From the NCBI GenBank assembly GCA_020849895.1, contig JADZFN010000020.1:18314-82313 (forward strand): a stretch of 64,000 bases of DNA, written 5' to 3'. This stretch comes from Verrucomicrobiia bacterium (lineage in GTDB: Bacteria; Verrucomicrobiota; Verrucomicrobiia; JABWAM01). The position numbers were made by a program, and so were the translations under genes. Positions 10,428 to 25,161 of the stretch are shown in pieces. Each line of letters starts with the position of its first letter. The first letter of the stretch is position 1. The notes below the pieces were generated by a model. It had not been told where the DNA came from and did not search any database. It worked only from the letters and a program-made list of their open reading frames with translations.

Positions 10428-10437
10428 AAAGGAAAGA

Positions 10438-11600: not shown

Positions 11601-11656
11601 AATTTTCCTTTTTAAGATTTTTGCGTATAGTTTGCGTTCCAAACCGATCTGTTTTG

Positions 11657-12943
11657 TTGAATCTTTTTTTTCAAAAATCCTGTCGAAGGATCAGGGACGT
11701 TGTGTGTCTCTGCGCGTTTTTCGCGATCGGCACGCGTGTGTTTGGGCAGTTCGACCCGTCAATTTCCATGACCGGCGTGGAGGCCGCCAACCTCGAGCGG
11801 GACGCACGCCAGCAGGTGGATGACACGCAGGCCACGGTGCGCGTGGGGAAGGTCAACTTCCGCATGGCTGCGGGGCTTCGCCAGGAATATAACGACAACA
11901 TCGGGCTGACGCCGAAGGCGCGGGAGCATGACTTCATCACCACGCCGCACCTCACGCTCGGCGCCCACTGGCCGATCTCCCAACTCAACAGCCTCGATCT
12001 CGTCCTCGGGCTGGCCTACTCCAAGTATTGGGAGCATCCGGCGCTCGACACGACCGGTCTCCTGATCGAGCCGACCTCCATGCTCGATTTCAACGTCTAC
12101 GTGGGCGACGTCCGGATCAACGTGCACGACCGGATCGGGATTCAGCAGGACCCTATTTCCGCGGGTCAGTTGAGCAACATCACGACCTTCCGCCGGCTCA
12201 ACAACACGGCCGGCATCGCCGCCGATTGGGACCTCAACAAGGTGATCCTCACCGGCGGTTACGACTACTCGATCTTTCGCACGCTCGAGGACGGCTACAG
12301 TTATCTGGATCAGGACTCGCACGAGTTTTACGGGCGCATCGGCTACCGCTACGCGCCGCAGCTCACCCTGGGCCTTCAAGGCTCCTACATCATCACGGAT
12401 TACCTGGAGAACGTGCAGAACGACGGCACGACGTGGAGCGCGGGCGTCTACGCGGACACCATTTTCAGCGAATACCTGCGCGGGGGCGCCTCAGTGAGCT
12501 TCCAGGGATCGAGATTCGACAGCAACGGCACGATCGGGGATACGAGTTCGTTCAATTCGGTGGTCTTCACGGCAACGCTCAACAATCAGCTCAACCGGTG
12601 GCTTAACCACTCGCTGACGCTGCGCCGCTTCACCACCTTAGGCATCGGGACGAATTTCACCGAGACCTATCGCGTGGATTATTCGCTGAATGCCGAGGTG
12701 GTCGAACAGGTGACCACCTCGCTGAATTTCTTCCACGAATGGTTCAGGGATTCCTCTTCTGCGGGCACCGGTTATTTGGCGCAAAAGGGAATGCGCTGGG
12801 GCGTGGGGCCGATGATCGGCTACCAAATCACGCCAGCCTCGCGTCTGTCCATCGGCTACCAGCGGACCGAACGCGACGCGAATTACAATCTGTATGACTA
12901 CACGCAAAACGTGGCGTTCATTGATTTCAATCATCAATTCTAG
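11657..12943 (+). CDS. Outer-membrane beta-barrel protein ending in a C-terminal Phe (EpsL-like, polysaccharide-locus associated). The exact start is uncertain: TTG 11621, TTG 11657 and GTG about 11700 are all possible.
   Basis: Alternating amphipathic beta-strand pattern, Tyr/Gly-rich, terminal ...FIDFNHQF*. Signal-peptide-like RRIRDVVCLCAFFAIGTRVFG. The first about 25 codons of the tracked ORF lie in an AT-rich noncoding-looking stretch. Confidence 0.6.
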   Translation: MNLFFQKSCRRIRDVVCLCAFFAIGTRVFGQFDPSISMTGVEAANLERDARQQVDDTQATVRVGKVNFRMAAGLRQEYNDNIGLTPKAREHDFITTPHLTLGAHWPISQLNSLDLVLGLAYSKYWEHPALDTTGLLIEPTSMLDFNVYVGDVRINVHDRIGIQQDPISAGQLSNITTFRRLNNTAGIAADWDLNKVILTGGYDYSIFRTLEDGYSYLDQDSHEFYGRIGYRYAPQLTLGLQGSYIITDYLENVQNDGTTWSAGVYADTIFSEYLRGGASVSFQGSRFDSNGTIGDTSSFNSVVFTATLNNQLNRWLNHSLTLRRFTTLGIGTNFTETYRVDYSLNAEVVEQVTTSLNFFHEWFRDSSSAGTGYLAQKGMRWGVGPMIGYQITPASRLSIGYQRTERDANYNLYDYTQNVAFIDFNHQF

Positions 12944-13636
12944 GTGTTTGTGAAGGCGCATCGTTTTCTCACCGTCCAGGCTTTCTACCTAGGGAGCTTG
13001 CTGCTTGCAGGTTCGTTGTGCGCGGAGGATCCGTCCACGAATGCGCTCGGGGCAAGTCCGATGCGTTCGGCGTCCCCGATCGTCCAACCGGAGACGCACG
13101 TCCTGCAGGTGGGGGACCGCCTCAGCTATCGCGTGGTGGAGGATCGGGAGGACACGCGGCTTCTGCCGGTCACCGCCTCCGGAGAGATCGAAGTCCCTTA
13201 TCTCGGCAAGGTGGTGGTGGCGGGGAAGACAGTTGCCGCCGCCGCTAAGGAGATCAAAACCTTGTTGGAGAAGGATCTCTATTACAAGGCGACCGTGGTG
13301 CTCTCGGTCGAGGAGGTGGCGCCCAAGCCTTTTGAAATGCCGTCCATGGGGCGGCTGAAACAGATTTCGGTGGTCGGACAGGTTCGGTCCCAGGGCGTCC
13401 AGGATATGCCCCGCGACGAAAGATATACGCTCAGCCGGGCGATCATCAAGGCGGGCGGTTTCAGCTCATTTGCCAACGGCCGAAAGGTGCAGGTGGTGCG
13501 GAAAGATGCGGAAGGCAAGACCGTGAAACTCGTGGTTGACATACTCTCCGTTCTCAAAGAAGGAAAAATCGAGAACGATATCGAACTGTTGCCGGACGAC
13601 ATGATCATCGTCCCCGAAAAACTCATCAACTTCTGA
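12944..13636 (+). CDS. Polysaccharide export protein, Wza/KpsD-like (Poly_export + SLBB domain)
   Basis: VQVGDRLSYRVVEDRE...IEVPYLGKVVVAGKT (Poly_export motif) and C-terminal ...IENDIELLPDDMIIVPE (SLBB). 230 aa. The start is 1 bp after the beta-barrel stop. Confidence 0.8.
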   Translation: MFVKAHRFLTVQAFYLGSLLLAGSLCAEDPSTNALGASPMRSASPIVQPETHVLQVGDRLSYRVVEDREDTRLLPVTASGEIEVPYLGKVVVAGKTVAAAAKEIKTLLEKDLYYKATVVLSVEEVAPKPFEMPSMGRLKQISVVGQVRSQGVQDMPRDERYTLSRAIIKAGGFSSFANGRKVQVVRKDAEGKTVKLVVDILSVLKEGKIENDIELLPDDMIIVPEKLINF

Positions 13637-13643
13637 TGCGGCC

Positions 13644-15866
13644 ATGGCTCCGCCCGCGCAAAACGATCCTGTGGCGCCGCCGCCGCCGCCACTCAGTACG
13701 AACGTCATTGATCGGATCAACTTCGCGATCCAATTCGAGAAGTATCGGGACATCATCCTCAAGCGCTGGTGGCTGATCGCGGTGTGCGTGGTCGGGACCC
13801 TCCTTTACGGGGCTTACAAGGCCTACCGCCAGCCGGACATTTACAAGGCGGCGGGGAGCATGATGGTGCGTCCGCGGGTGAATGTCGCTGTCAATGACGT
13901 GGTGAACGAGGAGTTGAGCAACTTTTACGGCACGCAGGTGCAGCTCATGCAGAGCCGCGCCGTGATCGAGTCGGCGCGGCGCAAGCTGGCGGATTTCGAG
14001 AAGTCCCTCACTCTCGATCCGTCGCCCTCCCTTCAGGTCTTCCAGGTCCGCAACACCTCGATCTTCAGCCTTTCGGTGACGAGCACTTCGGCGGAGTTCG
14101 CCAAGCGTTTCCTCGACCAGGTGATGCGCGAATACATCGCCTCCAAGAAGAAATCCCACGACGAGGTGACGGAGAACGTCGCCTCGAACATTCTGCGCGA
14201 AGTGGAGCGCCTCGACGCGGAGCGGCGCAAGACGGAGAAAGAGCTTTTCGATTTCCAGAAAAAATACAACGTGGCGTATTTCGAGGGGCAGGGGAATTTT
14301 TCGACGCAGTATCTCGTGGACCTCAAGCGGCAGCTCGCGGAAAAGACCACCGAGCTCGAACTGCTCGATGCGGAAACCGCCGAGCAACGGCTGAGCCGCC
14401 TCGCGGCGCCCGGCGCGGCCGAGAGCGCCCGCGCGGCGGAGGGAGGCACCAACCATTCTCCGGACAACATCAACCTGCCGAGCGGCGTGAAGACCGCCGA
14501 GAACAGCAGCAATCTCCGCGGCACCCTCGCCCTTCTCGAAAGCGAGCGCGCCGATCTGAGCAAGGTCCTCAAGCCGAAGCATCCCAAAATCCAGCGCCTC
14601 GACGAGGAGATCAAGCGCAAGCAGCAACTCCTCGACATCGCCCTCAAACAGACCCGGGAACAGATCGCCGCCTACCGCCAGTCGCTCGTCAAACAGAAGG
14701 AGGCCCTCCAGAAAAGCATTGCCGACGCCGAGAAGCAGGCGCTCGAGGCGAACCAGAAGGCCGCCGAATACGGCCAGCTCAAGTCGAACGTCGCCCGCAC
14801 CACCGAGCTTTACGACGTGCTCCTGAAGCAGCTCCAGACCATTGACACTGCAGGCGGCATGGAGCAGGAGCTGATCCAGATCCATGAACCGGCCACGGTC
14901 GGCGGCGCGCCCGTCGGTCCGAACCGCTCGCGCCAACTCCTCATGTCGGGCCTCTTCGGCCTCGGCATCGCCGCGCTCATCATCTTCCTCCTCGAGCGTT
15001 TCGACGACCGCGTGAAGACCGTCGAGGAGCTCCAGGATCTCGTGCCGGAGACCGTTCTTGGGCAGATCCCCTTGATCGCGGGCCGCAAGGACGACTCCGG
15101 GCCGCTCCTCATGGCGAACCTGCCGGAGCACAACAATTTCTCCGAGTCATTCCGCAACGTCCGCTCCTCGCTCATGTTCTCCCCGCTCGGCGGGCAGGCC
15201 AAGACGATCGCCGTGACCAGCGCCATCCCGAACGACGGCAAGACCACCTGCTCCGTCAACCTCGCCTGCTGCCTCGCGCAGGTTGAAGGCGGACGCACCC
15301 TGCTCATTGACGCCGACATGCGGAAGATGAACGTTCATCATTTTTTCGAGATGGAGAACGGAAACGGCCTCTCGGAAGCGCTCAGCGGCCAGGCCAGTCT
15401 CGATTCCTGCGTGATCGAGACGCGCATTCCAAACCTGCATCTCCTGCGCGCGGGGAACGCCCCGCCGAATCCCGGCGAGCTGCTCCTCAGCGAGAACTTC
15501 CGCCAGCTCCTGACGCAGATGTCTCAGTATTATCACCGGATCGTGATTGACACGCCGCCCGTACTGGCCACCGACGACACCCTCTCGATGGCGCCTTCGC
15601 TCGACGGGCTGATTTTTGTGGTGAAGGCGAATCAGACCTCCCTGCGGTTCGTGAACCGCTCCATGCATTTGTTGAAGCAGCGCGGAGCCAAGATCTTCGG
15701 TCTCGTGCTCAATCAGATTGATACCACATCCGCTCACTACTACTACTACTACTACTACTCGACGTACTACTACGGGCGGGATGCGCGGAGAAAAGGCGGA
15801 TCGCGCGCGGCCGGCGAGGCCGTCGCGGCGCCGGCACCGCCGGAGACCCCCGCTCCGACGGTCTGA
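13644..15866 (+). CDS. Polysaccharide co-polymerase/tyrosine autokinase (Wzc/ExoP/GumC-like PCP-2a). N-terminal Wzz chain-length domain with long coiled coils, plus C-terminal BY-kinase domain and Tyr cluster.
   Basis: Two TM segments flank a roughly 400-aa coiled-coil periplasmic region. The kinase domain has Walker A AIPNDGKTT and Walker B LLIDAD. C-terminal ...SAHYYYYYYYSTYYYGRD. 740 aa. Confidence 0.85.
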   Translation: MAPPAQNDPVAPPPPPLSTNVIDRINFAIQFEKYRDIILKRWWLIAVCVVGTLLYGAYKAYRQPDIYKAAGSMMVRPRVNVAVNDVVNEELSNFYGTQVQLMQSRAVIESARRKLADFEKSLTLDPSPSLQVFQVRNTSIFSLSVTSTSAEFAKRFLDQVMREYIASKKKSHDEVTENVASNILREVERLDAERRKTEKELFDFQKKYNVAYFEGQGNFSTQYLVDLKRQLAEKTTELELLDAETAEQRLSRLAAPGAAESARAAEGGTNHSPDNINLPSGVKTAENSSNLRGTLALLESERADLSKVLKPKHPKIQRLDEEIKRKQQLLDIALKQTREQIAAYRQSLVKQKEALQKSIADAEKQALEANQKAAEYGQLKSNVARTTELYDVLLKQLQTIDTAGGMEQELIQIHEPATVGGAPVGPNRSRQLLMSGLFGLGIAALIIFLLERFDDRVKTVEELQDLVPETVLGQIPLIAGRKDDSGPLLMANLPEHNNFSESFRNVRSSLMFSPLGGQAKTIAVTSAIPNDGKTTCSVNLACCLAQVEGGRTLLIDADMRKMNVHHFFEMENGNGLSEALSGQASLDSCVIETRIPNLHLLRAGNAPPNPGELLLSENFRQLLTQMSQYYHRIVIDTPPVLATDDTLSMAPSLDGLIFVVKANQTSLRFVNRSMHLLKQRGAKIFGLVLNQIDTTSAHYYYYYYYSTYYYGRDARRKGGSRAAGEAVAAPAPPETPAPTV
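15738..15773 (+). repeat. In-frame trinucleotide microsatellite (TAC)7-TCG-ACG-(TAC)3 encoding the C-terminal tyrosine cluster of the BY-kinase
   Basis: Read directly: cac tac x7 tcg acg tac x3. All Tyr codons are the same triplet. Confidence 0.9.
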
Positions 15867-15883
15867 GACGCTCCGATTTCGCC

Positions 15884-16738
15884 ATGCGATCTTCATCGGC
15901 GCTGTCCGAGACCGTGGTCTCCGCGGATGTTCGTGTTCGCTTCCTCCAGTATCTCCGGGATCTGTGGCACTACCGCGACCTCTTCCGCGCGCTCATCGAG
16001 CGCGACGTGAAGGTCCGTTACAAGCAGACGGCGCTCGGCGTGATGTGGGTGATCCTCCAGCCCCTGTTCATGGCGGGGGCGTTTTCCCTCATCTTCGGAC
16101 GAGTGGTCCAGATGCCCAGCGCGGGGCTTCCCTATTCGATCTTTTACCTTGCTGCCCTGATTCCGTGGACATGTTTCTCCAACGGCCTTTCCCAGGCGGC
16201 CGGCAGCATGGAGGGCAGCGCCGGGCTCATCAGCAAAGTATATTTTCCGCGTCTCATCGTTCCCTCGGCGATGGTTCTAGGCACCGTGGTGGATTTCGCC
16301 ATCGGCTGGCTCTTGTTCAACGGCCTGGCTATTTATCGAGGATTCTGGACCTGGTGGTTCATCCCCTTCACACCGGTCCTGCTGGTGCTGCAGCTCTTCG
16401 CAGCGATGGGGATCGGGTTGGTGCTTGCCGCGCTCAACGCCCAGTATCGCGACGTCCGTTACGTGACCCCCTTCCTTCTCCAGGCCGGCATGCTCTGCAC
16501 GCCGGTCATCTATCCGCTCGAGCGCCTCCTCAGCACGCGCTTTACCGAGCAACTCGGCGTGCTGATCTATCTGAATCCGATGGCGGGCGTGATCGAAACT
16601 TATCGCGCCCTTTGCTTCTCCGCTTCCTACGTTCCGTGGAAGCTTCTTGCGGGAAACAGTGTCACGACCGCCGCGCTTCTCGCCTTCGGAATCTGGTTCT
16701 TCCGCCGCCGCGAACAGGCCATTGTGGACCTCCTATGA
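15884..16738 (+). CDS. ABC-2 type polysaccharide/O-antigen exporter permease (Wzm/KpsM/TagG family)
   Basis: 284 aa, 6 TM helices, ABC-2 signature region (…YIPWKLLAGNS…). Immediately precedes a Wzt-like ATPase. Confidence 0.85.
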   Translation: MRSSSALSETVVSADVRVRFLQYLRDLWHYRDLFRALIERDVKVRYKQTALGVMWVILQPLFMAGAFSLIFGRVVQMPSAGLPYSIFYLAALIPWTCFSNGLSQAAGSMEGSAGLISKVYFPRLIVPSAMVLGTVVDFAIGWLLFNGLAIYRGFWTWWFIPFTPVLLVLQLFAAMGIGLVLAALNAQYRDVRYVTPFLLQAGMLCTPVIYPLERLLSTRFTEQLGVLIYLNPMAGVIETYRALCFSASYVPWKLLAGNSVTTAALLAFGIWFFRRREQAIVDLL

Positions 16739-16832
16739 GGATCGCCGATCACCGATTGCCGATCGCCGATGGCGCTGGAAAGCGCGCTTCGCATCCCGTG
16801 GGCCGCCCCTCGCCCTCCGCCTGTTGTCTTTC

Positions 16833-18104: not shown

Positions 18105-18119
18105 TCCGAGCCCGCGTCC

Positions 18120-18818
18120 ATGCCGGTCAGCAACCCTTATCAGCTTCCCTTCGTGCTGGACGCCGCCGCACGGAGTGCGCCGGCGCGCGTGCTCGATGTC
18201 GGCATCGGCCTCGGCCTCGTCGGCGCTGCTCTACGCCAGTATCTCGAAGTCTGCGCCGGACGCCTCGAACGCCACGAGTGGCGCTGCCGGATCGAGGGGA
18301 TCGAGATCCATCCGCCCTACCGGACGCCTCTCTGGGATTGGGCCTACGATGCCGTGCATCTCGGGGATGCCCGGGAAATTCTGCCGCGACTCGGCAAGTT
18401 CGATCTCCTCCTCGCCTGCGACGTGATCGAGCACTTCCCGAAAGAGGAGGGGCGGGCGTTTCTCGAGACCTGCCTGACCGCTGCCCGTTTTGTCATCGTG
18501 ACGTCGCCGGTCGGACGTTACGAGCAGGGGACCGTATTCGGGAACCCGCACGAGGCGCACCTGAGCGAATGGAGCCGCAAGGATTTTCGCATCTGGCCGA
18601 ACCACTACGTCGAGGCGCGAGGCACGTTCATGGCGACGCTCGCGCGGGAACGCGGCGACCTCCTCCGCCTCGGCTTGCGGACGTTGCCGCGCCTGAACCG
18701 ATCCGCCTCCCAGGCCGCGCGCGACTTCGCCGCTGCGGCGGGGCTCGGCCCGTTCGCCCGCCGCGCGCGCCGCGCCCTCCTCGCGTGCGCGGGGCGGAGA
18801 CGCGCGGCACCCCCATGA
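18120..18818 (+). CDS. Class I SAM-dependent methyltransferase
   Basis: VLDVGIGLG (motif I) ... LLACDVIEHFP (motif II/III region). 232 aa. Confidence 0.7.
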   Translation: MPVSNPYQLPFVLDAAARSAPARVLDVGIGLGLVGAALRQYLEVCAGRLERHEWRCRIEGIEIHPPYRTPLWDWAYDAVHLGDAREILPRLGKFDLLLACDVIEHFPKEEGRAFLETCLTAARFVIVTSPVGRYEQGTVFGNPHEAHLSEWSRKDFRIWPNHYVEARGTFMATLARERGDLLRLGLRTLPRLNRSASQAARDFAAAAGLGPFARRARRALLACAGRRRAAPP

Positions 18819-20017
18819 AGCCGTTTCGGATCGGCTTGCTCACACATTCGTTCCACCGCCGCTCCGCCGCGGGGCTTCGGTGCTGGCACCTTGGACGCGC
18901 CCTCGCGCGCGAAGGCGCGGACCTGCGCGTCTATTGCACGGAGGGCGAGACGCCCTCGGACCTTGGCGAGGCATCCTGCGCGGTGCGTGAAATCGGCGTC
19001 GTTCCCCGAGGTTTTGCCGACCGTGCGGACACGCTGGCTCGAGTGCTCCACGCGCGGTTCGGCTGGACGCCGCCGCTGGTCGTCACCTTTCACGCCAAGC
19101 TGCGACGGCGTGCGCCGATTCTCCGCGCGGCGTTCGACGCGGTCCGGCGCGCAGAGGAGAGACGCCCGCACGATTTTCTGCTCGCCGTCTGGCCGGACTT
19201 CGAGTGGGCGGACGCGGCGCGGAGCGTCGCGCGCGTGTATCGGATGCCTTTCGCAGTGGAGTTTCAGGACCCCTGGATGCACTTCTATCCGCCGGGTGTG
19301 CGCCCGCATGCGCTCGGCGCGTTGCGGCGCGTTCTCGACGGCGCGGCCTTTACGCTCAACGTGTGCGAGGCGTGGTGTGCGAGAGACACCCGCGACTTCG
19401 GCCTGCGTTCCGTCTGCATCCCGACCGGTTTTTGGGAGCGTCCGCGTCCCTCCCGCGACGGAGACCCCCGGCGCTCCCTCCGCCTCGCCTACGCCGGCTC
19501 CCTCTGGTACTTCGACCTCGCCCCGCTGGTGAAAGGATTGCGTCTCGCCCGGGACGCGGGCGTGGACTGGCGCTTCGCGTATGCCGGAGACGATGAGGCG
19601 CTCGTGCGCGGCGCCTTCGAGGCCGAAGGGATCGCCGACCAGCTCGAGACGCGCGGACGGGTGACGCCCGAGGACGCCCTCGATGCCATCTCCGCCGCCG
19701 ACGCTCTCCCGCTGTTCACGTTGCCCTCCAAGCCCTCCACATTCGGTTTCAAGTTCGCCGAAGTGGTGTCGCGCGGTCTGCCGGTGCTGCTCATCGGGCC
19801 GGACGATCCCGTGCTCCGCGAGGCGATCGCCGCGCGCGCGCGCCTGCACGCGTGTCCGGACGCGGCTGCAGTCGCCGCGGCGCTGGCCGAGCTGGCGCGC
19901 GCGCGCCCGATCCGGCCGCAACCGCATCCTTCCGTGGCCGAATGGACCTGGCCGGCGCTCGCGCGACGGCTGCTGGGAGAAATGCGGGTGGCCGCCTTCG
20001 ACCGGAAAAAGGCGTGA
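18815..20017 (+). CDS. Glycosyltransferase (GT-B fold, GT4-like). Start reassigned to ATG 18815 (MKPFRIGLLTHSF...), which overlaps the upstream stop (ATGA).
   Basis: The N-terminal MKPFRIGLLTHSFHRRSAAGL is a typical GT4 N-terminus. A C-terminal ...PSKPSTFGFKFAEVVSRGLPVLL EX7E-like region is present. The tracked ORF start at 18278 lies inside the preceding gene. Confidence 0.65.
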   Translation: MKPFRIGLLTHSFHRRSAAGLRCWHLGRALAREGADLRVYCTEGETPSDLGEASCAVREIGVVPRGFADRADTLARVLHARFGWTPPLVVTFHAKLRRRAPILRAAFDAVRRAEERRPHDFLLAVWPDFEWADAARSVARVYRMPFAVEFQDPWMHFYPPGVRPHALGALRRVLDGAAFTLNVCEAWCARDTRDFGLRSVCIPTGFWERPRPSRDGDPRRSLRLAYAGSLWYFDLAPLVKGLRLARDAGVDWRFAYAGDDEALVRGAFEAEGIADQLETRGRVTPEDALDAISAADALPLFTLPSKPSTFGFKFAEVVSRGLPVLLIGPDDPVLREAIAARARLHACPDAAAVAAALAELARARPIRPQPHPSVAEWTWPALARRLLGEMRVAAFDRKKA

Positions 20018-20856
20018 GCACGCTTTCGGTCATCATCCCGGCCTACAACGCCGCGCCATTCCTGGCGCAGGCGGTCCTCAGCCTCGTCGCCCAGCGTCGC
20101 CGGCCGGACGAGGTGGTGATCGTGAACGACGCGAGCACCGACGGGACGCGGCGGGTACTGGAACGGCTGCGGCGGAAGACGAAGCAATTCGCGATCATCG
20201 CCGCCGAGAACGCGGAGAACCTCGGCGGCGGCGCGACGCGCAATCGCGCGGTCGCCCTCGCGAAGGGCGACTATCTGTTTTGCCTCGATGCGGACAACCT
20301 TCTGCTTCCCGACACACTGCACCTCTTTCTGGAGCGCGCGGAACAGGCGCGCGCGATGGAGGGACGGCCCGCCGTGATCTGTTCCGAGGCGCTGCAGTTC
20401 TTCCGGGACCGGTTCCTCGTGCCCCGCCTGAATTGGGTTCGGATCGGCAAACGGCTCGGCGAACGGTGGGAGTTTTTCAACCTTTCGCGCACCGCCATCC
20501 TGACGAACCCGGTCTCGCCAGCCTCGAGCGGCAACTACCTCTACCATCGCGAAATCTTCGAACGATCGGGCGGCTACGCGGAGGACTGTGGCGCTTACGA
20601 CGCCTGGGTCTTCGGCGTCCGCAATTGCCTTGCGGGATATCCTTTCCTGGCCGTGCCCGGGGTCAGCTACCTTCATCGTCTGCATCCGCGAAGCTACTGG
20701 GAGCAGGACATCCTGAAGGACAACCGCCGCGATCATATGATGAGAGCTTTCGGCAATTTCCGCCACGTTTACACCGAGGAGACGTTTGACTACCTTCAGG
20801 CGGTGAGGCGGATCGGCAGACTCGATTGGTCGAGGCTCAAGCTTCGCGTCTCCTGA
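20014..20856 (+). CDS. Glycosyltransferase family 2. The GTG start at 20014 overlaps the upstream stop (GTGA).
   Basis: VSTLSVIIPAYNAAPFLAQAVLSLVAQ...VIVNDASTDGT (GT2 DXD-containing Rossmann N-terminus), then ...CLDADN. Confidence 0.8.
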   Translation: MSTLSVIIPAYNAAPFLAQAVLSLVAQRRRPDEVVIVNDASTDGTRRVLERLRRKTKQFAIIAAENAENLGGGATRNRAVALAKGDYLFCLDADNLLLPDTLHLFLERAEQARAMEGRPAVICSEALQFFRDRFLVPRLNWVRIGKRLGERWEFFNLSRTAILTNPVSPASSGNYLYHREIFERSGGYAEDCGAYDAWVFGVRNCLAGYPFLAVPGVSYLHRLHPRSYWEQDILKDNRRDHMMRAFGNFRHVYTEETFDYLQAVRRIGRLDWSRLKLRVS

Positions 20857-20869
20857 AACCGTCCATTCC

Positions 20870-21532
20870 TTGGAAACCTCGCCTCAGATTCCCCGCGGCG
20901 CGCGCCTCCACCTCGGCTGTGGAGGACAGCCCCTGCCGGGTTACGTCAACATTGACACGCAACCGTCGGACCGCCAACCGCGACCCAAGGCCGACATATT
21001 CACGGATTTTACCCGACTCTCTCTCTCCGCGGGCCACGTCTCCGAGATCCGCCTCCACCACGTCTTCGAACATTTCCGGAAGGGAGAGGCCGCGGCGCTG
21101 CTCGCGCGGTTCAACGAGTGGCTCCAGCCCGACGGCGCCCTTTGTGTCGAGGTGCCGGATTTCGGCGACACGTCCCTCTATTATCTCCTTACCGGCGACC
21201 TTCGCGCCATCCGTCATCTCGCGGGGTCTCAGGAGGCCTCGTGGGCCACGCACCATGAGCTGTGGGATGCGCGCCAGCTCCGTCGCGCACTTGATCTTTT
21301 CGGTTTCGGGCGCATCGCGTTGCGGCGGAACCGCGCGTGGTTCCGGCGGTCGCGGCGGAAATGGTGGTGCAACCTCACCGCTCTGGCACGCAAGGAGCGC
21401 TCTCTCGAGCCGGAGGAGGCGCGTCGGGCCGCCGAGGCGTTCTTCGAGCCGTACCTCGTCAATCGCGAGATCGAGCTTTCCGCCTGGCTCGGACACTTCG
21501 ACGCGATGATGGGGCGAGGACGCGGACCGTGA
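20870..21532 (+). CDS. Class I SAM-dependent methyltransferase (Methyltransf_11-like). TTG start.
   Basis: LHLGCGGQPLPGYVNID (motif I) ... LCVEVPD. 220 aa. Confidence 0.65.
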   Translation: METSPQIPRGARLHLGCGGQPLPGYVNIDTQPSDRQPRPKADIFTDFTRLSLSAGHVSEIRLHHVFEHFRKGEAAALLARFNEWLQPDGALCVEVPDFGDTSLYYLLTGDLRAIRHLAGSQEASWATHHELWDARQLRRALDLFGFGRIALRRNRAWFRRSRRKWWCNLTALARKERSLEPEEARRAAEAFFEPYLVNREIELSAWLGHFDAMMGRGRGP

Positions 21533-22716
21533 GAGTCCTGCTCTGCTCGTTCAGCCGGCCGTTCCCGCAGAGCGACGGTCCATGGCCTCTCTGGACGCCC
21601 CCCTTCCGCGAAGGCCTTGAGGCCTGCGGATGCGAAGTGGTCGAGCCGAAGACGGTGGATCTCATCGAGCCGTTTTTGCGCCGCGCGGACACGGACTGGA
21701 TCCTCCGGAATCGTTCTGCGCTCGCGGGCCGGCTCCTCGACGAGGTCCGTCGCCTTCACCGGGAGAAGCCTCTCGATCTCATCTTCACCTACTTCTGGGA
21801 GTTCCAGGTGGATGCCGCGGGGATGCGCGCGATCACCGACCTCGGGATCCCCACGGTGAATTTCTTCTGCGACAACGTGCGCGAGTTTTCGAGCGTCGAA
21901 CCGCTGGTGCGCAGCTTCACCCTCAACTGGGTTCCCGAAGTCGGCGCGCTGCCTCTCTACCGGCGGGCCGGAGCCCCGCACGTCCATCTCCCGATGTCCG
22001 CTTCGCCCTCGCGGTTCCCCTTCGAGGAACGGCCCGAGAAACGGCGCGTGGTCTTCATCGGCTCCGCCGATGTGGTGCGCCGCCATCTGCTCGACCAGGT
22101 GCGCGACCGCCTGCCGCTCCGCGTCGGAGGAGAGGGATGGGCGCCCGCGGCGACGGGCGAGGGCGCGCCCTCCGGCGCGCCGCGGCGTTCCTTCGCCGAT
22201 CTTGCCGGGACCCTTGCGAGCCACGCAGCCAGGGTCCTGCGTCACGGGCCGCGTGCGGAATGGAACCATTTCGAGCAGAAGCGCGTGGAGCTCCGTCTGG
22301 CCGGCCGCTTCGCCGATCTCGCCCTCGACACGCGCAAGTCCTCTGCGATGCTCGAGGCCTTCTGGGACAGCGCGGTGACTCTCGGCATCAACCGTTTCCC
22401 CACGCCCGAGGCGCCTCTCGAACGACCACGCTGCTACTCGCGGCTGCGCGACCTCGAGGCCCCCATGGCGGGCGCAGCCTACCTCACCGAGCGGACGGAG
22501 GACCTTCCGCATCTGTTCGAGGAGGGGAAAGAAGTGCTCGCGTATCGGACCGCCGACGAACTCGTCGCGCAGGCGGAACGCATGCTGGAAGATCCCGCGC
22601 TCCGTCGTCGCTTGCGGCGGGAAGGCCGCCGCCGCGCCCTCGCAGAACACACCTGGGAACGGCGCTTCCGCGACCTCTTCCGCCATCTCGGCCTGAAACC
22701 TCCCCGCGTTCCGTGA
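21529..22716 (+). CDS. Glycosyltransferase family 1 / CgeB-like (DUF3880 + Glyco_trans_1_2). The GTG start at 21529 overlaps the upstream stop (GTGA).
   Basis: Central ...RRVVFIGSAD... and C-terminal ...EVLAYRTADELVAQAERMLEDPALRRRLRREGRRRALAEHTWERRFRDLF, characteristic of the CgeB/GT1 C-terminus. Confidence 0.6.
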   Translation: MRVLLCSFSRPFPQSDGPWPLWTPPFREGLEACGCEVVEPKTVDLIEPFLRRADTDWILRNRSALAGRLLDEVRRLHREKPLDLIFTYFWEFQVDAAGMRAITDLGIPTVNFFCDNVREFSSVEPLVRSFTLNWVPEVGALPLYRRAGAPHVHLPMSASPSRFPFEERPEKRRVVFIGSADVVRRHLLDQVRDRLPLRVGGEGWAPAATGEGAPSGAPRRSFADLAGTLASHAARVLRHGPRAEWNHFEQKRVELRLAGRFADLALDTRKSSAMLEAFWDSAVTLGINRFPTPEAPLERPRCYSRLRDLEAPMAGAAYLTERTEDLPHLFEEGKEVLAYRTADELVAQAERMLEDPALRRRLRREGRRRALAEHTWERRFRDLFRHLGLKPPRVP

Positions 22717-23675
22717 AACATCTCCGTCACGCCATCGTCGCTGCGGCTTGGGCCGTTTCCCGGGCGTTCCTTCGCGTCCTGCCTGCGCGCGCGTTGCGGG
22801 CGTTCCTCACCGAGTGCGCGCGAAATCCCGACGCGGCGGACCGTGCGGGGTTTCATGTCCGCCGCGCCGGATTCAGCGAACCGCTGCCGGATTTCACCGC
22901 GCTCGAGGCGCGAGACTTCGAGAGCCCGCGTTGGGCGCATGGATTGGACTGGAGGGACGCGACGCAAGAAGCCCTTCTGCGGAAACTGGCGAAGCGCGTC
23001 GAGGAACTCGACGCGCTCGAAACCGAGGCCGCGCCCTTCCGCTTCGACAATGGGTTCTACGGTGGCGCCGATGCCGCGGCGTTCTTCCTCCTCCTGCGCG
23101 ATCTGAAGCCCCGCCGCCTTGTCGAGGTGGGTTCGGGGTTCTCGACGCGCGTGGCGCAAGCCGCCCTTCGTCGCAATGCGCGCGAGGGCGCGCCGGCCGA
23201 GGAGCATGTCTGTCTCGAACCCTTTCCGAACGAACGCACGGCCGGACTCTCTGAGGGCGTTCGCTTTCTGAGAAGCGCCGCCGAAGACGCGCCCGAGGAG
23301 CTTTTCCTCGGTTTGCGGGGCGGAGACGTGCTCTTTGTAGATTCCTCGCATACGGTTCGTCCTTTCGGAGACGTCCCGCGCCTCGTCCTCGATCTTCTGC
23401 CTCGCCTGCATCCCGGGGTATGGGTCCATTTTCACGACATCTTTCTTCCATGGGATTACCCGAGAACGTGGGTGGTGCGGGAGCGACGCATCTGGACGGA
23501 GCAATATCTGCTCGAAGCCTTCCTTTCCGAAAACCCGAACTTGGAAATCGTGCTGGCGATGTACCGTCTCCATCGAGCGGCCGATATGCCGCTGCGCGCC
23601 CTTGGATTCCGTGACGGGATCGGCCATCCTCCCTGCGCCTTCTGGATGAGGCGCCGCGAAACCGCAACCTCATGA
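22713..23675 (+). CDS. Class I SAM-dependent methyltransferase of the TylF/MycF/CmcI-like group (Methyltransf_24). The GTG start at 22713 overlaps the upstream stop (GTGA).
   Basis: ...LVEVGSGFST... , ...DVLFVDSSHTVRPFGDVPRLVLDLLPRLHPGVWVHFHDIFLPWDYP (the macrocin-O-methyltransferase-like metal-binding region). Confidence 0.65.
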   Translation: MKHLRHAIVAAAWAVSRAFLRVLPARALRAFLTECARNPDAADRAGFHVRRAGFSEPLPDFTALEARDFESPRWAHGLDWRDATQEALLRKLAKRVEELDALETEAAPFRFDNGFYGGADAAAFFLLLRDLKPRRLVEVGSGFSTRVAQAALRRNAREGAPAEEHVCLEPFPNERTAGLSEGVRFLRSAAEDAPEELFLGLRGGDVLFVDSSHTVRPFGDVPRLVLDLLPRLHPGVWVHFHDIFLPWDYPRTWVVRERRIWTEQYLLEAFLSENPNLEIVLAMYRLHRAADMPLRALGFRDGIGHPPCAFWMRRRETATS

Positions 23676-24505
23676 CCCTGTCCTCGGTCCCGAGGCGTCT
23701 CGCCCTCGCCCTGCTCCCGCGCCGCCTCTGGTTTGCGCTCCGCGGCGTCCACCGCGCGTGGACCGGGAGGCTGTCCGGGATCTGGCACCGTCGCCTTCTC
23801 GCGCGCCTCGGAGGAACGGTGCAAAGCGGTCCCTTTCGCGGAATGCGCTACGTGGAGGAGTCGGTGGGGAGTTCGTTTCTCCCGAAGCTTCTCGGCACTT
23901 ACGAGCTCGAACTGCATCCCGCCCTCGAGAAGCTGCGCGTGAACGATTTCGACCTCGTCGTGGACGTCGGCGCGGCGGAGGGTTGGTATGCCGTGGGAGC
24001 GACGCTCCTGTGGCCGAGCGCGCGCGTGATCGCTTTCGAGACCCACGCCGTGGGCCGCCTCCTCTGCGCCGAGCTCGCGTCGCGCAACGGCGCGAAAAGA
24101 CGCGTCGAGATCCATGGTTTCGCTGACCTTCTCTCGTTCCGCGCCATCCTCAATGGCGCGGCGGCGGAGCGGACGCTGGTGATCATGGACGTCGAGGGCG
24201 CGGAAATCGTCCTGCTCGATCCCGTGGCGGCGCCCGAGCTTTCCCACACCGCGATCCTCGTGGAGTGCCACGACGAGAAGGGGAACCCGGTTGCCGCGAC
24301 CTTGCGTTCCCGCTTCGCCGCCTCTCACGAGGTGGAAACCGTCCCGAGCCGGGCGAGGAGCGTCGGGGACTTTCCCCTTCCGGATCGGCCGCCGCTCGGG
24401 TGGGCTGTGCCGCTGCTCACCGCGATGGCGGAGCATCGCCCCCGCCGGATGGAATGGCTCGTGATGCTTCCTCGCGCCGGGGCCGCGGAGAGGAGGAGCC
24501 CATGA
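23672..24505 (+). CDS. FkbM-family methyltransferase. The ATG overlaps the upstream stop (ATGA).
   Basis: ...VVDVGAAEGWYAVGA...RVIAFE...VIMDVEGAEIVLL... matches the FkbM domain pattern. Confidence 0.7.
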   Translation: MTLSSVPRRLALALLPRRLWFALRGVHRAWTGRLSGIWHRRLLARLGGTVQSGPFRGMRYVEESVGSSFLPKLLGTYELELHPALEKLRVNDFDLVVDVGAAEGWYAVGATLLWPSARVIAFETHAVGRLLCAELASRNGAKRRVEIHGFADLLSFRAILNGAAAERTLVIMDVEGAEIVLLDPVAAPELSHTAILVECHDEKGNPVAATLRSRFAASHEVETVPSRARSVGDFPLPDRPPLGWAVPLLTAMAEHRPRRMEWLVMLPRAGAAERRSP

Positions 24506-25161
24506 GCCGGCTCGGGCGGCTGCTGTGGGGGAAGATCACCCCGCGGCGCGTCCTGCTGCGGCTGGTGGAGGCGACGAACGCCCGCCTCGGGCGGCGCGCC
24601 CAAGGGAGGCTCTACTTCGAAGATCTCTACCGCGAACGCGACCCATGGAACTACGAAGAGAGCGCCTACGAGCAGGTCAAATACGCGAAGACGCTGGAAC
24701 TGCTGCCCCAGCCGCGTTTCCAGCGCGCCCTCGAAGTGGGATGCAGCATCGGGGTCTTCACACACCAGCTCGCCGCGAAGGCGGACGAGGTGATCGCCCT
24801 CGACATTTCGGCGCGCGCCTGCCGCCGGGCGCGGATGCGTTGCGCCGACCAGCCTCAGGTGCATATTCGCCGCGGCGACCTCGTCCACTTCGTGGACGCA
24901 GCCGGCTTCGACCTCATCCTCTGCGCGGAGATGCTTTACTATCTCTGGGATCGTCCGCGCGAGCGCGCGATCGTCGGCTCTCGACTCGGCGCACTCCTGC
25001 GCCCGGGCGGTTGGCTCGCACTCGTTTTCGGCGGGAGCGGCGTAGGACAGGACTGGGAAGGCGAACTCGAACGGCGCGCTGGATTGGTCCGCCACGAAAC
25101 CCGCTTCTTCGACGACCCCGTTCGCTCTTGGCGCTTCTCCCTCCTCCGCAAACCGGGTTGA
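24502..25161 (+). CDS. Class I SAM-dependent methyltransferase (NodS/Methyltransf_23-like). ATG 24502 follows the AGGAGGAG SD and overlaps the upstream stop (ATGA).
   Basis: ...ALEVGCSIGVFTHQLA...VIALDIS...FDLILCAEMLYYL... The tracked ORF start at 24265 lies inside the preceding gene. Confidence 0.7.
   Translation: MSRLGRLLWGKITPRRVLLRLVEATNARLGRRAQGRLYFEDLYRERDPWNYEESAYEQVKYAKTLELLPQPRFQRALEVGCSIGVFTHQLAAKADEVIALDISARACRRARMRCADQPQVHIRRGDLVHFVDAAGFDLILCAEMLYYLWDRPRERAIVGSRLGALLRPGGWLALVFGGSGVGQDWEGELERRAGLVRHETRFFDDPVRSWRFSLLRKPG

What the first reader, a model, noticed from the sequence alone, without database searches (positions are those of the whole stretch)
11621..25161. Hybrid exopolysaccharide/O-antigen-like locus with one operon-like gene chain
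Thirteen co-directional genes form a single polysaccharide locus.

- Contents: an EpsL-like outer-membrane barrel, Wza, a Wzc-type BY-kinase co-polymerase, a Wzm/Wzt ABC exporter, four glycosyltransferases (GT4-like, GT2, CgeB/GT1-like, plus DPM1-like GT2 nearby at 33.8 kb), and six SAM-dependent methyltransferases of four different sub-families (generic class I x3, TylF/MycF-like, FkbM, NodS-like).
- Unusual pairing: in the classical scheme, Wza/Wzc go with a Wzx/Wzy polymerase (absent here), and Wzm/Wzt go with KpsE/KpsD.
- Methyltransferase load: six methyltransferases in one glycan locus implies a heavily O-methylated, likely hydrophobic glycan. There is no acetyl/pyruvyl transferase, no sugar-nucleotide synthesis genes, and no initiating phosphoglycosyl transferase. 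Those must lie elsewhere.
Basis: partly seen in the sequence, partly recalled or inferred. Interest (0 to 1): 0.7.

Follow-up and report, generated by a model that had tools for sequence, protein, structure and literature searches.

The report
Capsule-type exporter fed by O-antigen ABC pump
A 13-gene operon-like locus from an uncultured Verrucomicrobiae bacterium joins an O-antigen-type ABC exporter, which reads a chemical cap on the finished sugar chain, to a capsule-type tyrosine-kinase, periplasmic-channel and outer-membrane-barrel export route, and this textbook-breaking combination is conserved across a whole clade of relatives.

Summary
Window 11621-25161 holds 13 co-directional, tightly packed genes; six junctions are 4-nt start/stop overlaps. 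They encode an 18-strand outer-membrane barrel, a short Class-3 OPX, a complete Wzc BY-kinase, Wzm, Wzt, three glycosyltransferases and five methyltransferases.

- There are five methyltransferases, not six.
- The GT2 at 33.8 kb is not part of the locus.

The barrel-OPX-Wzc-Wzm-Wzt order recurs in 16 of 17 related loci with Wzc at least 45% identical, and OPX-Wzc-Wzm-Wzt also occurs in one Bacteroidota MAG. No Wzx, Wzy or WaaL candidate lies in any of them. The downstream GT/MT block varies like a serotype region, and the CBD varies with it.

Best reading: an ABC-transporter-dependent, methyl-modified and probably methyl-capped glycan is handed to a Wzc/OPX/porin translocon.

Main rival: two adjacent but independent systems. 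A NusG-paralog gene separates the two modules in more distant relatives, and one relative has the export trio with an exosortase and no ABC pump.

Verdict: a new variant of known kinds, of moderate interest.

The parts
11621..12943 (+). g1: outer-membrane 18-strand beta-barrel (BBP2_2 family; Wzp/EpsX-like porin role). The true start is probably TTG 11654/11657, which gives a signal peptide.
12944..13636 (+). g2: short (230 aa) Class-3 / D1D2 OPX protein with no outer-membrane-spanning C-terminal helix. It ends in a conserved ...PEKLINF.
   Evidence: Poly_export plus SLBB fill the protein up to residue 223 of 230. TIGR03027 scores 80.5 bits, below its 180 cutoff. Best PDB hit is 9n9a, M. xanthus WzaB, over the full length at E 7e-8. 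The C-terminal NF/NW is conserved in 7 relatives.
13644..15866 (+). g3: Wzc-type PCP-2a co-polymerase with a cytoplasmic BY-kinase domain and a C-terminal tyrosine cluster.
   Evidence: TIGR01007 at 186 bits passes its 108 cutoff. Wzz, GNVR and AAA_31 domains are present. Walker A (NDGKTT), A' (IDADMRK), B (VIDTPP) and the SAHYYYYYYYSTYYY tail are conserved in 17 homologs. Two TM segments lie at 36-55 and 430-454.
15884..16738 (+). g4: Wzm, the ABC-2 permease. It is the only polytopic membrane protein in the locus.
   Evidence: ABC2_membrane at 49 bits. Wzm/RfbD and KpsM models match below cutoff. TM scan.
16833..18104 (+). g5: Wzt, an ABC ATPase with a C-terminal carbohydrate-binding domain (residues ~263-423). 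TTG 16722 is an alternative start.
   Evidence: ABC_tran. It is 81-88% identical over its full length to orthologs, of which L003's carries a precomputed Pfam Wzt_C hit. The family profile aligns NBD plus CBD to A. aeolicus Wzt 8dku/7k2t at E 1e-99, residues 32-372 of 404. The CBD diverges to ~20% identity between loci while the NBD stays at 55-60%.
18120..18818 (+). g6: class-I SAM methyltransferase (sub-threshold assignment).
   Evidence: Methyltransf_23 at E 2.7e-4, 21 bits, below GA 27. PDB hits to the Hen1 MT domain and to SAM-MT 9fcx at E 3e-4 to 5e-3. Motif I reads VLDVGIGLG. Orthologs in L005 (73%) and L010.
18815..20017 (+). g7: GT-B (GT4-like) glycosyltransferase. Its ATG overlaps the g6 stop.
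   Evidence: Glyco_trans_1_4 at 28.4 bits, GA 27. Orthologs at ~70% in L005 and L003, directly after Wzt in L003.
20014..20856 (+). g8: GT2 (GT-A) glycosyltransferase. Its GTG overlaps the g7 stop.
   Evidence: Glycos_transf_2 at 107 bits. 70% ortholog in L005.
20870..21532 (+). g9: class-I SAM methyltransferase.
   Evidence: Methyltransf_23 at 30.7 bits, above GA 27. The 78% ortholog in L005 is fused there to an extra FkbM domain.
21529..22716 (+). g10: CgeB-like GT-B glycosyltransferase (Glyco_trans_1_2).
   Evidence: PF13524 at 82.6 bits. 76% ortholog in L005 and 35% in L007.
22713..23675 (+). g11: Methyltransf_24 (TylF/CmcI-like clan) methyltransferase with a ~130-aa N-terminal extension.
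   Evidence: PF13578 at 54.4 bits, residues 137-243. 76% ortholog in L005.
23672..24505 (+). g12: divergent class-I SAM methyltransferase, FkbM/COMT-like by fold. No Pfam model passes threshold.
   Evidence: TIGR01444 at 28.9 bits, below its 37.7 cutoff. AF2 model has pLDDT 93.9, and all 50 listed Foldseek PDB hits are methyltransferases, with probability 1.00. The family has at least 246 members at E <= 0.001. One homolog abuts a Wzt_C-bearing Wzt in L028, and another sits in a glycan cluster of Methylomarinum vadi.
24502..25161 (+). g13: NodS-like methyltransferase, the last gene. It faces a convergent decarboxylase gene 15 nt downstream.
   Evidence: NodS PF05401 at 79.5 bits, GA 24. NF041650 at 87.8 bits, below its 300 cutoff. 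PDB NodS 3ofj at E 2e-17.

Best explanation
This is one ABC-transporter-dependent glycan assembly and export system whose outer half is a capsule/EPS-type translocon.

Inferred sequence of events:
1. A phosphoglycosyl transferase encoded elsewhere primes a polyprenyl-phosphate carrier.
2. The three soluble glycosyltransferases (g7, g8, g10) build the whole chain on the cytoplasmic face.
3. The five soluble SAM methyltransferases modify it there. At least one probably places a terminal methyl-type cap that stops elongation.
4. The C-terminal carbohydrate-binding domain of Wzt recognises that cap and licenses transport through Wzm/Wzt.
5. In the periplasm the chain is not ligated to lipid A-core. 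It enters the cavity of the Wzc oligomer, passes the short periplasmic OPX ring (g2) and leaves through the 18-strand barrel (g1).
6. The Wzc tyrosine-kinase cycle gates this hand-over.

Shown here: gene content, domain architecture, tight gene packing and conservation of the cassette.

Inferred: physical coupling of Wzm/Wzt to Wzc, the chemical nature of the cap, which methyltransferase makes it, and the lipid anchor.
For: **Locus structure**
- Thirteen packed co-directional genes, with no intergenic terminator-like site above chance.
- All GTs and MTs lack TM segments, and Wzm is the only polytopic protein in the locus. That fits cytoplasmic assembly.

**Parts**
- The Wzt family profile aligns through NBD and CBD to A. 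aeolicus Wzt. Orthologs carry Pfam Wzt_C.
- In A. aeolicus the CBD binds a 3-O-methyl sugar cap and is required for export of capped chains (PMC9445017).
- The CBD is the fast-evolving, locus-specific part, at about 20% identity against 55-60% for the NBD. The downstream GT/MT block varies in step with it.
- g2 is a Class-3 OPX. g1 is an 18-strand AlgE-like barrel. This matches the composite OPX/barrel translocon (PMC9601211, PMC9603273, PMC12819527).
- Wzc has every BY-kinase motif.

**Conservation**
- Barrel-OPX-Wzc followed by Wzm-Wzt occurs in 16 of 17 relatives, and OPX-Wzc-Wzm-Wzt in one Bacteroidota MAG.
- No Wzx/Wzy/WaaL-like polytopic ORF lies in the polysaccharide region of any of these loci, and no such Pfam family was listed where gene tables exist (Pfam lists).
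- Wzc and Wzm/Wzt identities co-vary (rho 0.69-0.70). The points are not phylogenetically independent.
- The full 12-gene order g1-g12 is kept at 69-86% amino-acid identity in L005.
- Another relative, L018, also has at least 5 MT genes.
Against: - There is no experimental case of a PCP-2a BY-kinase working with Wzm/Wzt. CBD-bearing Wzt proteins are known only from O-antigen and S-layer glycan routes that end in ligation.
- In six more distant relatives (L007, L009, L011, L017, L018, L019) a NusG-paralog gene sits between Wzc and Wzm. Such genes usually open their own operon, so the two halves may be separate transcription units.
- L002/L008 has barrel-OPX-Wzc beside an exosortase with no ABC pump. 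The export trio can therefore exist without Wzm/Wzt.
- No Wzb-type phosphatase, priming transferase or sugar-nucleotide gene lies in the window.
- No methyltransferase can be assigned to a sugar substrate from sequence.
- g12 and the CBD do not co-vary: L028 has a 50% g12 homolog but an unrelated CBD.
- The organism is an uncultured MAG, so no glycan chemistry exists.
Confidence: 0.55

Rival explanations
1. Two neighbouring but functionally independent systems. Wzm/Wzt plus the GT/MT block make a capped O-antigen that WaaL ligates to lipid A-core and Lpt exports. The barrel/OPX/Wzc trio serves a different polymer, Wzx/Wzy-made or exosortase/PEP-CTERM-linked, whose synthesis genes lie elsewhere. 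Adjacency would reflect co-regulation of envelope glycans or a shared genomic island.
For: - A NusG-paralog gene separates Wzc from Wzm in six relatives.
- L002/L008 carries the trio with exosortase EpsH and no ABC transporter.
- The trio gives sub-threshold hits to the XrtA/XrtB PEP-CTERM export TIGRFAMs.
- A PEP-CTERM protein gene lies just upstream of the locus.
- Every characterised CBD-bearing Wzt feeds a ligation route (PMC9445017).
- The textbook pairs PCP-2a with Wzy (PMC12220298).
Against: - The adjacency holds in 16 of 17 relatives spanning 46-90% Wzc identity, and in a Bacteroidota MAG.
- In the window only 17 nt separate wzc from wzm, with no terminator-like site between them.
- No fetched flank holds a Wzx/Wzy/WaaL-like ORF or an alternative polymer-synthesis block for the trio.
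- The locus sits in different genomic contexts in the window and L005, yet keeps both halves together.
Confidence: 0.3
2. The glycan is not a free capsule or O-antigen. It is a methylated oligo- or polysaccharide destined for protein or S-layer decoration, for example of PEP-CTERM proteins sorted by exosortase. Wzm/Wzt flips the lipid-linked glycan and the Wzc/OPX/barrel set handles the glycoconjugate or an associated matrix polymer.
For: - A PEP-CTERM/DUF3344 protein is encoded about 1 kb upstream on the opposite strand.
- The export trio is exosortase-adjacent in L002.
- Wzm/Wzt-type transporters with methyl-capped glycans serve S-layer glycosylation in Gram-positive bacteria (established knowledge; also noted in PMC4594306).
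Against: - No oligosaccharyltransferase, exosortase or S-layer gene lies in the window.
- OPX/porin channels are known to pass polysaccharide, not glycoprotein.
- Most cassette-bearing relatives show no PEP-CTERM or exosortase gene in their flanks.
Confidence: 0.07
3. Some or all of the methyltransferases are not carbohydrate-directed. They could act on a lipid, a small molecule or a protein and be carried along in the operon. The glycan would then be only lightly methylated, or not at all.
For: - g6 resembles Hen1-type RNA 2'-O-MTs only weakly.
- g12's nearest folds are catechol and precorrin MTs.
- NodS-family and generic class-I hits cover many substrate classes.
- None reaches an equivalog cutoff.
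Against: - Three MT genes overlap neighbouring GT genes by 4 nt at a start or stop (g6/g7, g9/g10, g10/g11), and g12 and g13 continue the overlap chain from g11.
- g6, g9, g11 and g12 are retained in order in L005; g13 lies beyond the fetched end of that locus.
- g12 homologs sit beside a Wzt_C-type Wzt and inside other glycan clusters.
- MT genes recur in the variable block of related cassettes: L003, L009, L017, L018, L019.
- NodS itself methylates a non-reducing terminal sugar (established knowledge).
- A CBD-bearing Wzt implies a cap, and methyl groups are among the known caps (PMC9445017).
Confidence: 0.08

Closest known systems
Capped O-antigen export by WzmWzt with a carbohydrate-binding domain (E. 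coli O8/O9a with the WbdD terminator; Aquifex aeolicus WzmWzt, PDB 8dku/7k2t)
   Same: ABC-2 permease plus an ATPase with a C-terminal jelly-roll CBD (profile match E 1e-99). Soluble GTs build the chain in the cytoplasm. Methyltransferases lie in the locus, consistent with a methyl-type cap (PMC9445017, PMC3482155). The CBD and GT/MT block are serotype-like and variable.
   Different: Those systems hand the glycan to WaaL and Lpt and have no OPX or PCP-2a neighbours. Here the transporter genes directly follow barrel-OPX-Wzc. No WbdD-like kinase or coiled-coil terminator is present. There are five separate small MTs rather than one terminator.
Class-3 OPX / beta-barrel composite translocon of Myxococcus xanthus (WzaX/S/B with WzpX/S/B and a PCP-2 Wzc; EpsY/EpsX) and V. 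cholerae VpsN/VpsM
   Same: Short OPX (230 aa; Poly_export plus one SLBB) with no OM helix. Its best PDB hit is WzaB 9n9a. The adjacent barrel has 18 strands, there is a PCP-2 partner, and the OPX has a conserved C-terminal aromatic residue, compared with the WzaB Phe-Phe that docks on WzpB (PMC12819527).
   Different: All characterised examples are Wzx/Wzy-dependent. Here the only inner-membrane translocase is Wzm/Wzt. Only 14 of 453 such OPX/barrel pairs were computationally assigned to ABC-dependent loci (PMC9601211), and none has been studied. The barrel belongs to Pfam BBP2_2. The OPX C-terminus is ...LINF, not SFF.
Group 2/3 capsule export (KpsMT-KpsE-KpsD)
   Same: An ABC transporter feeds a PCP/OPX trans-envelope conduit, so a cytoplasmically completed polymer goes straight to the surface.
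   Different: KpsE is a PCP-3 without a kinase. KpsD is a long Class-2 OPX. KpsT has no CBD and recognises a lyso-PG-Kdo anchor made by KpsS/KpsC. None of these features is present here.
PEP-CTERM/exosortase-associated EPS export genes (TIGR03007, TIGR03014, TIGR03016, TIGR03018, TIGR03027; Methylobacillus EpsL/EpsE/EpsF/EpsG)
   Same: The same three kinds of part (barrel, short OPX, chain-length determinant with tyrosine kinase), detectable similarity to every model, a PEP-CTERM protein next door, and exosortase next to the trio in relative L002.
   Different: All scores are far below trusted cutoffs (for example 80.5 vs 180, 143 vs 231, 76 vs 279, 21.6 vs 275). No exosortase or EpsB-type sugar transferase lies in the window. 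The PCP and kinase are fused, and an ABC exporter takes the place of Wzx/Wzy.
Methyl-rich ABC-dependent glycan loci (P. aeruginosa / P. syringae common polysaccharide antigen with O-methyltransferases; V. cholerae O1 Ogawa RfbT; Rhizobium O-antigens with multiply O-methylated terminal sugars)
   Same: Wzm/Wzt-dependent loci in which SAM methyltransferases modify or cap the chain (PMC7820976, abstract). The L005 ortholog region shows a weak RfbT-family hit.
   Different: Five MTs against three GTs is an unusually high ratio. None of the five reaches an equivalog cutoff for a characterised sugar MT. The comparison with Rhizobium and P. aeruginosa rests on my own knowledge and was not tested here.

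Membership tests
WzmWzt O-antigen-type ABC exporter with CBD | ABC-2 type permease (Wzm) adjacent to the ATPase | tested here: met
   PF01061 at 49 bits, above GA. At least 5 hydrophobic segments. The gene lies directly upstream of wzt.
WzmWzt O-antigen-type ABC exporter with CBD | Wzt NBD followed by a C-terminal carbohydrate-binding (Wzt_C) domain | tested here: met
   The 7-sequence profile aligns to residues 32-372 of 404 of A. aeolicus Wzt at E 1e-99. Orthologs 72-81% identical (L003; faintly L004) carry Pfam Wzt_C. The window protein alone gave no Pfam Wzt_C hit at E <= 0.01.
WzmWzt O-antigen-type ABC exporter with CBD | A terminator enzyme adds a non-reducing-end cap that the CBD binds | tested here: inconclusive
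   Five MTs are present, but none could be tied to the CBD. g12 does not co-vary with CBD type.
WzmWzt O-antigen-type ABC exporter with CBD | Product ligated to lipid A-core by WaaL | not testable with these tools
   No Wzy_C/O-antigen ligase hit in the window ORFs scanned. The rest of the genome was not available.
Class-3 OPX / beta-barrel composite translocon | OPX of at most 280 aa with a PES (Poly_export) motif plus SLBB and no C-terminal OM-spanning helix | tested here: met
   230 aa. Poly_export covers 49-119 and SLBB 139-223. The only hydrophobic segment is the N-terminal signal. Best PDB hit is the Class-3 WzaB 9n9a.
Class-3 OPX / beta-barrel composite translocon | Coupled gene for a 16-18-strand OM beta-barrel within five genes | tested here: met
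Class-3 OPX / beta-barrel composite translocon | C-terminal aromatic motif of the OPX that docks on the porin (Phe-Phe in WzaB) | tested here: inconclusive
   The C-terminus ...PEKL(I/V)N(F/W) is conserved in 8 loci. It has a single aromatic residue, and docking was not modelled.
Class-3 OPX / beta-barrel composite translocon | Operates with Wzx flippase and Wzy polymerase (all characterised members) | tested here: not met
   No polytopic ORF other than Wzm lies in the locus or in the polysaccharide region of 12 related loci. No Polysacc_synt or Wzy_C hits.
PCP-2a BY-kinase (Wzc) | Two TM helices flanking a large periplasmic domain, with Wzz/GNVR motifs | tested here: met
   TM segments at 36-55 and 430-454. 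Wzz E 2e-4 and GNVR E 4e-5, both just under GA. TIGR03007 and TIGR03017 align across residues 130-480.
PCP-2a BY-kinase (Wzc) | Fused cytoplasmic kinase with Walker A, A' and B motifs and a C-terminal tyrosine cluster | tested here: met
   TIGR01007 at 186 bits, above its 108 cutoff. The motifs and the SAHYYYYYYYSTYYY tail are invariant or near-invariant in 17 homologs.
PCP-2a BY-kinase (Wzc) | Cognate phosphotyrosine phosphatase (Wzb/PHP) in the locus | tested here: not met
   No LMWPc or PHP hit in any window ORF scanned. It may lie elsewhere in the genome.
PEP-CTERM/XrtA-associated EPS export set | Proteins reach the trusted cutoffs of TIGR03007, TIGR03014, TIGR03016, TIGR03018 and TIGR03027 | tested here: not met
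   Scores against cutoffs: 76.4/278.9, 21.6/275, 38.5/90.9, 143.1/230.7, 80.5/180.
PEP-CTERM/XrtA-associated EPS export set | Exosortase (EpsH) gene in the neighbourhood | tested here: not met
   No Exosortase_EpsH hit among the window ORFs scanned. It is present next to the trio only in relative L002.
Group 2 capsule system (KpsMTED) | PCP-3 KpsE, Class-2 OPX KpsD, and KpsS/KpsC Kdo-linker transferases | tested here: not met
   The PCP carries a kinase. The OPX is 230 aa with no GfcC domain. No Capsule_synth hit was found. KpsM scores 40 bits against a 300 cutoff.

The most novel reading that the evidence does not exclude
The cassette defines a distinct, lineage-wide fourth wiring of bacterial polysaccharide export. 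A cap-reading O-antigen-type ABC transporter delivers finished chains directly into a BY-kinase PCP-2a / Class-3 OPX / porin conduit. The tyrosine-phosphorylation cycle would then act as an export gate for a pre-made polymer, not as a regulator of Wzy polymerisation. The multi-methyltransferase block would write a methyl code on the chain end that sets both chain length and export licence.
Probability: 0.35. Interest if true: 0.75.

Novelty: new variant of a known kind. Interest (0 to 1): 0.5.

Why it matters
Current reviews sort Gram-negative polysaccharide export into three schemes: Wzx/Wzy with PCP-2a/Wza, ABC with PCP-3/KpsD, and synthase with a porin. This cassette mixes parts of all three: a cap-reading O-antigen ABC pump, a BY-kinase PCP-2a, and a short OPX with an AlgE-like barrel. 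It is also conserved, so it is unlikely to be an assembly accident.

If the parts really work together:
- The Wzc kinase cycle can operate without a Wzy polymerase. That bears on the open question of what BY-kinase phosphorylation actually controls.
- Verrucomicrobiota, abundant in soil, water and gut, would have a capsule route with a serotype-like variable GT/MT/CBD region. This matters for phage and predator recognition and for carbon cycling of methylated sugars.
- Annotation pipelines that call any Wzm/Wzt an 'O-antigen exporter' and any Wzc a 'Wzy-dependent' marker would mislabel this clade.

Tried and rejected
- **Exact look-ups.** Look-ups of the window Wzc and of P0051 found no contig on record. 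The source was identified only through 100% identical NCBI protein names.
- **Wrong-frame ORFs.** GC3 rejected the long ORFs 16769-17950, 19683-20789 and 21630-23675 as genes. 21630-23675 fuses the out-of-frame overlap of g10 with the true g11.
- **Sixth methyltransferase.** None was found. The extra FkbM domain exists in L005 but not in the window.
- **g12 as the cap enzyme.** I tested whether g12 is read by the CBD, because g7 and g12 are the only variable-block genes shared by the window/L005 and L003, which have similar CBDs. L028 has a 50% g12 homolog next to a Wzt whose CBD is unrelated, so this stays only a lead.
- **PDB sequence searches.** They were uninformative for g9, g11 and g12. 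g12 needed a structure model.
- **Regulatory elements.** There is no ops/JUMPStart element in the leader. Rfam found only a tRNA in the window. The sigma-70 scan found no + strand promoter, so the promoter was not located.
- **Schwabe 2022 supplements.** The held files did not list the 14 ABC-linked cases. I could not check whether this clade is among them.
- **Flank synteny.** The window and L005 share no sequence outside the locus.

Full report
**1. What is in the sequence**

The window has about 65% G+C, so raw ORF lists are crowded with false frames. A GC3 frame plot and a start-codon scan resolve 13 + strand genes between 11621 and 25161:

| Gene | Coordinates | Product |
|---|---|---|
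| g1 | 11621-12943 | OM beta-barrel |
| g2 | 12944-13636 | short OPX |
| g3 | 13644-15866 | Wzc |
| g4 | 15884-16738 | Wzm |
| g5 | 16833-18104 (or from 16722) | Wzt |
| g6 | 18120-18818 | methyltransferase |
| g7 | 18815-20017 | GT-B glycosyltransferase |
| g8 | 20014-20856 | GT2 glycosyltransferase |
| g9 | 20870-21532 | methyltransferase |
| g10 | 21529-22716 | CgeB-like glycosyltransferase |
| g11 | 22713-23675 | methyltransferase |
| g12 | 23672-24505 | methyltransferase |
| g13 | 24502-25161 | NodS-like methyltransferase |

- Six junctions are ATGA/GTGA overlaps. The other gaps are 0-17 nt, apart from a 94-nt Wzm-Wzt spacer.
- Terminator-like hairpins occur at the chance rate (14 found, 13.6 expected), and none lies between genes.
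- Public proteins 100% identical to g1 and g12 are annotated as IT578_03105 and IT578_03160 of a Verrucomicrobiae bacterium MAG. That names the source. If tags rise in steps of five, the spacing also fits this gene count.
- The locus ends 15 nt before a convergent Orn/DAP decarboxylase gene.
- It begins after an AT-rich leader, just downstream of an IS3-family transposase remnant on the other strand.

**2. What the genes are**

*Export genes*
- g2 is only 230 aa. Poly_export and one SLBB domain fill it to the end. Its best PDB match is the Class-3 OPX WzaB of M. xanthus.
- g3 is a complete PCP-2a. It has two TM helices, a ~375-aa periplasmic domain, Walker A/A'/B motifs and a C-terminal run of tyrosines, all conserved in 17 homologs.
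- g4 and g5 are Wzm and Wzt.

*The Wzt carbohydrate-binding domain*
- The Wzt family profile aligns across both the nucleotide-binding domain and a C-terminal domain to full-length Aquifex aeolicus Wzt (E 1e-99).
- Close orthologs carry Pfam Wzt_C.
- Wzt therefore has the carbohydrate-binding domain that reads a non-reducing-end cap in capped O-antigen systems. In A. aeolicus that cap is a 3-O-methyl sugar (PMC9445017).

*Glycosyltransferases and methyltransferases*
- g7, g8 and g10 are GT-B, GT2 and CgeB-like GT-B glycosyltransferases.
- g9, g11 and g13 pass Pfam thresholds as Methyltransf_23, Methyltransf_24 and NodS-like.
- g6 is a sub-threshold class-I methyltransferase with a clear motif I.
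- g12 passes no family model. Its model (pLDDT 93.9) matches only SAM methyltransferases among the top hits in the PDB.
- That makes five methyltransferases, not six.
- All GTs and MTs lack membrane segments.

*What the locus and window lack*
- The locus has no sugar-nucleotide, acyl/pyruvyl-transferase or priming-transferase gene.
- The window has no exosortase, Wzb, Wzx, Wzy or WaaL gene.
- The GT2 at 33.8 kb is separated from the locus by six housekeeping genes and a tRNA, and does not belong to it.

**3. Comparison with relatives**

They show a conserved order: barrel - short OPX - Wzc - Wzm - Wzt(CBD) - variable block.

- Among distinct loci with Wzc at least 45% identical and enough downstream DNA, 16 of 17 have Wzm(/Wzt) right after Wzc. 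These are L001, L003, L004, L005, L007, L009, L010, L011, L017-L023 and L027.
- The exception, L002/L008, has the trio beside an exosortase gene and no ABC pump.
- A Bacteroidota MAG (L014) also has OPX-Wzc-Wzm-Wzt.
- L005 (Wzc 83% identical) keeps the whole order g1-g12 at 69-86% amino-acid identity, but in an unrelated genomic context.
- The downstream block otherwise changes from locus to locus. L001 has eight GTs. L003 has a GT11, an FkbM gene and GT2s. L017 and L019 have deoxy-amino-sugar genes and a C-methyltransferase. L018 has at least five MT genes.
- The Wzt CBD changes with the block: 68-87% identity within the window's subgroup and about 20% outside it, while the NBD stays at 55-60%.
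- This is the pattern of a constant export region joined to a serotype-specific region.
- In the polysaccharide region of every cassette locus, the only polytopic membrane ORF is Wzm.

**4. Mechanism**

The best-supported reading (about 0.55) is a single ABC-transporter-dependent pathway. Assembly and methylation take place in the cytoplasm. The Wzt CBD recognises a cap. Wzm/Wzt moves the chain across the inner membrane. The chain then crosses the periplasm and outer membrane through Wzc, the Class-3 OPX ring and the 18-strand barrel. That last step is the 'third' OM export mode described for M. xanthus and V. cholerae (PMC9601211, PMC9603273, PMC12819527).

- The OPX C-terminus (...PEKL[I/V]N[F/W]) is conserved in the eight loci examined. 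This recalls the terminal Phe-Phe by which WzaB docks on WzpB.
- Shown: architecture, packing and conservation.
- Inferred: the Wzm/Wzt-to-Wzc hand-over, the cap chemistry and the role of each MT.

**5. Rivals**

The main rival (about 0.3) is that the two halves are independent neighbours: a capped O-antigen route ending in WaaL, next to an export trio serving another polymer.
- In its favour: six more distant relatives carry a NusG-paralog gene between Wzc and Wzm. The trio occurs alone with an exosortase in L002. The trio gives sub-threshold hits to all PEP-CTERM-associated export models.
- Against it: the near-universal adjacency, the 17-nt wzc-wzm spacer here, and the absence of any alternative polymer source in the fetched flanks.

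Two minor rivals are a protein-glycosylation destination and methyltransferases that do not act on carbohydrate. Context disfavours the second. Three MT genes overlap neighbouring GT genes at a start or stop. g12 homologs sit beside CBD-type Wzt or in other glycan clusters. MT genes recur in the variable blocks of relatives.

**6. Relation to what is known**

- Each part is a member, or a clear relative, of a known family. The membership table gives the details.
- The wiring departs from the standard scheme. The 2025 review PMC12220298 still pairs PCP-2a with Wzy and PCP-3 with ABC transporters.
- It is not entirely unforeseen. Schwabe et al. counted 14 of 453 short-OPX/barrel pairs next to ABC-dependent genes, without further analysis. 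Cyanobacterial surveys noted co-occurrence of Wzc-like PCPs with KpsM/Wzm homologs.
- New here: the cassette is conserved across a Verrucomicrobiota clade. Its ABC ATPase is the cap-reading O-antigen type. Its PCP is a full BY-kinase. The variable region co-varies with the CBD.
- I rate it a new variant of known kinds, interest about 0.5.

**7. Limits**

- All relatives are MAG or metagenome contigs, so whole-genome inventories were not possible.
- E-values for weak MT assignments are marginal.
- The TM scan is a crude hydropathy count.
- The identity correlation (rho 0.69-0.70) ignores phylogenetic non-independence.
- No promoter was located.

Noticed in passing
window 11179-11541 (- strand): Remnant of an IS3-family transposase: an HTH_21 domain at E 4e-8, apparently truncated or frameshifted. 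It lies directly upstream of the locus leader. Together with the lack of flank synteny to L005, it hints that the locus has moved or been rearranged.
   Followed up: partly
window 9360-10685 and 10438-11058 (- strand): A DUF3344 protein ending in a PEP-CTERM sorting motif (PF07589 at 20.0 bits, just under GA 20.7). Beside it is a prepilin-type N-methylation/DUF1559 protein. The two ORFs overlap as listed, so the start of the first is probably further downstream. No exosortase gene lies in the window.
   Followed up: partly
L007 12415-12969; L009 8116-8661; L011 1047-1604; L017 12291-12851; L018 12335-12880; L019 6953-7432: A NusG-paralog gene (PF02357; RfaH/UpxY-like by position) sits between wzc and wzm in the more distant relatives. 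It is absent from the window and its closest relatives. It suggests dedicated antitermination of the long ABC/GT operon.
   Followed up: partly
L005 17305-18807: The ortholog of g9 is fused to an extra N-terminal FkbM (Methyltransf_21) domain with a weak V. cholerae RfbT hit. Similar FkbM genes follow Wzt directly in L007 and L014. The window lacks this domain.
   Followed up: partly
L019 3064-3711 and 3738-4472: Two tandem short OPX genes lie between the barrel and Wzc, where the other loci have one.
   Followed up: no
window 23672-24505 (g12) and homologs P0140-P0259: g12 belongs to a large family: at least 246 clusters at E <= 0.001, across Verrucomicrobiota, Planctomycetota, Proteobacteria and others. 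Most members have no Pfam assignment, yet the model folds confidently as a class-I methyltransferase. The family looks under-annotated and glycan-locus-associated.
   Followed up: partly
window 16739-16832: A 94-nt spacer between wzm and wzt contains short GATCGCCGAT-type repeats and no obvious ribosome-binding site. The same junction is a 4-nt overlap in L003 and about 395 nt in L010.
   Followed up: no
window 57290-59644 (+ strand): A single 784-aa ORF combines MurC (Mur ligase domains) and MurB (FAD_binding_4 plus MurB_C) in the dcw cluster. MurB/C fusions are known from Verrucomicrobia (my own knowledge, not checked here).
   Followed up: no
window 35520-37967 (- strand): The H+-pyrophosphatase gene has an extreme third-position G+C of 0.92, well above neighbouring genes at about 0.8.
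   Followed up: no
window 31760-31835 (+ strand): tRNA-Ala(GGC), the only RNA family hit in the window. It lies between the pantothenate kinase gene and the M3 peptidase gene.
   Followed up: yes
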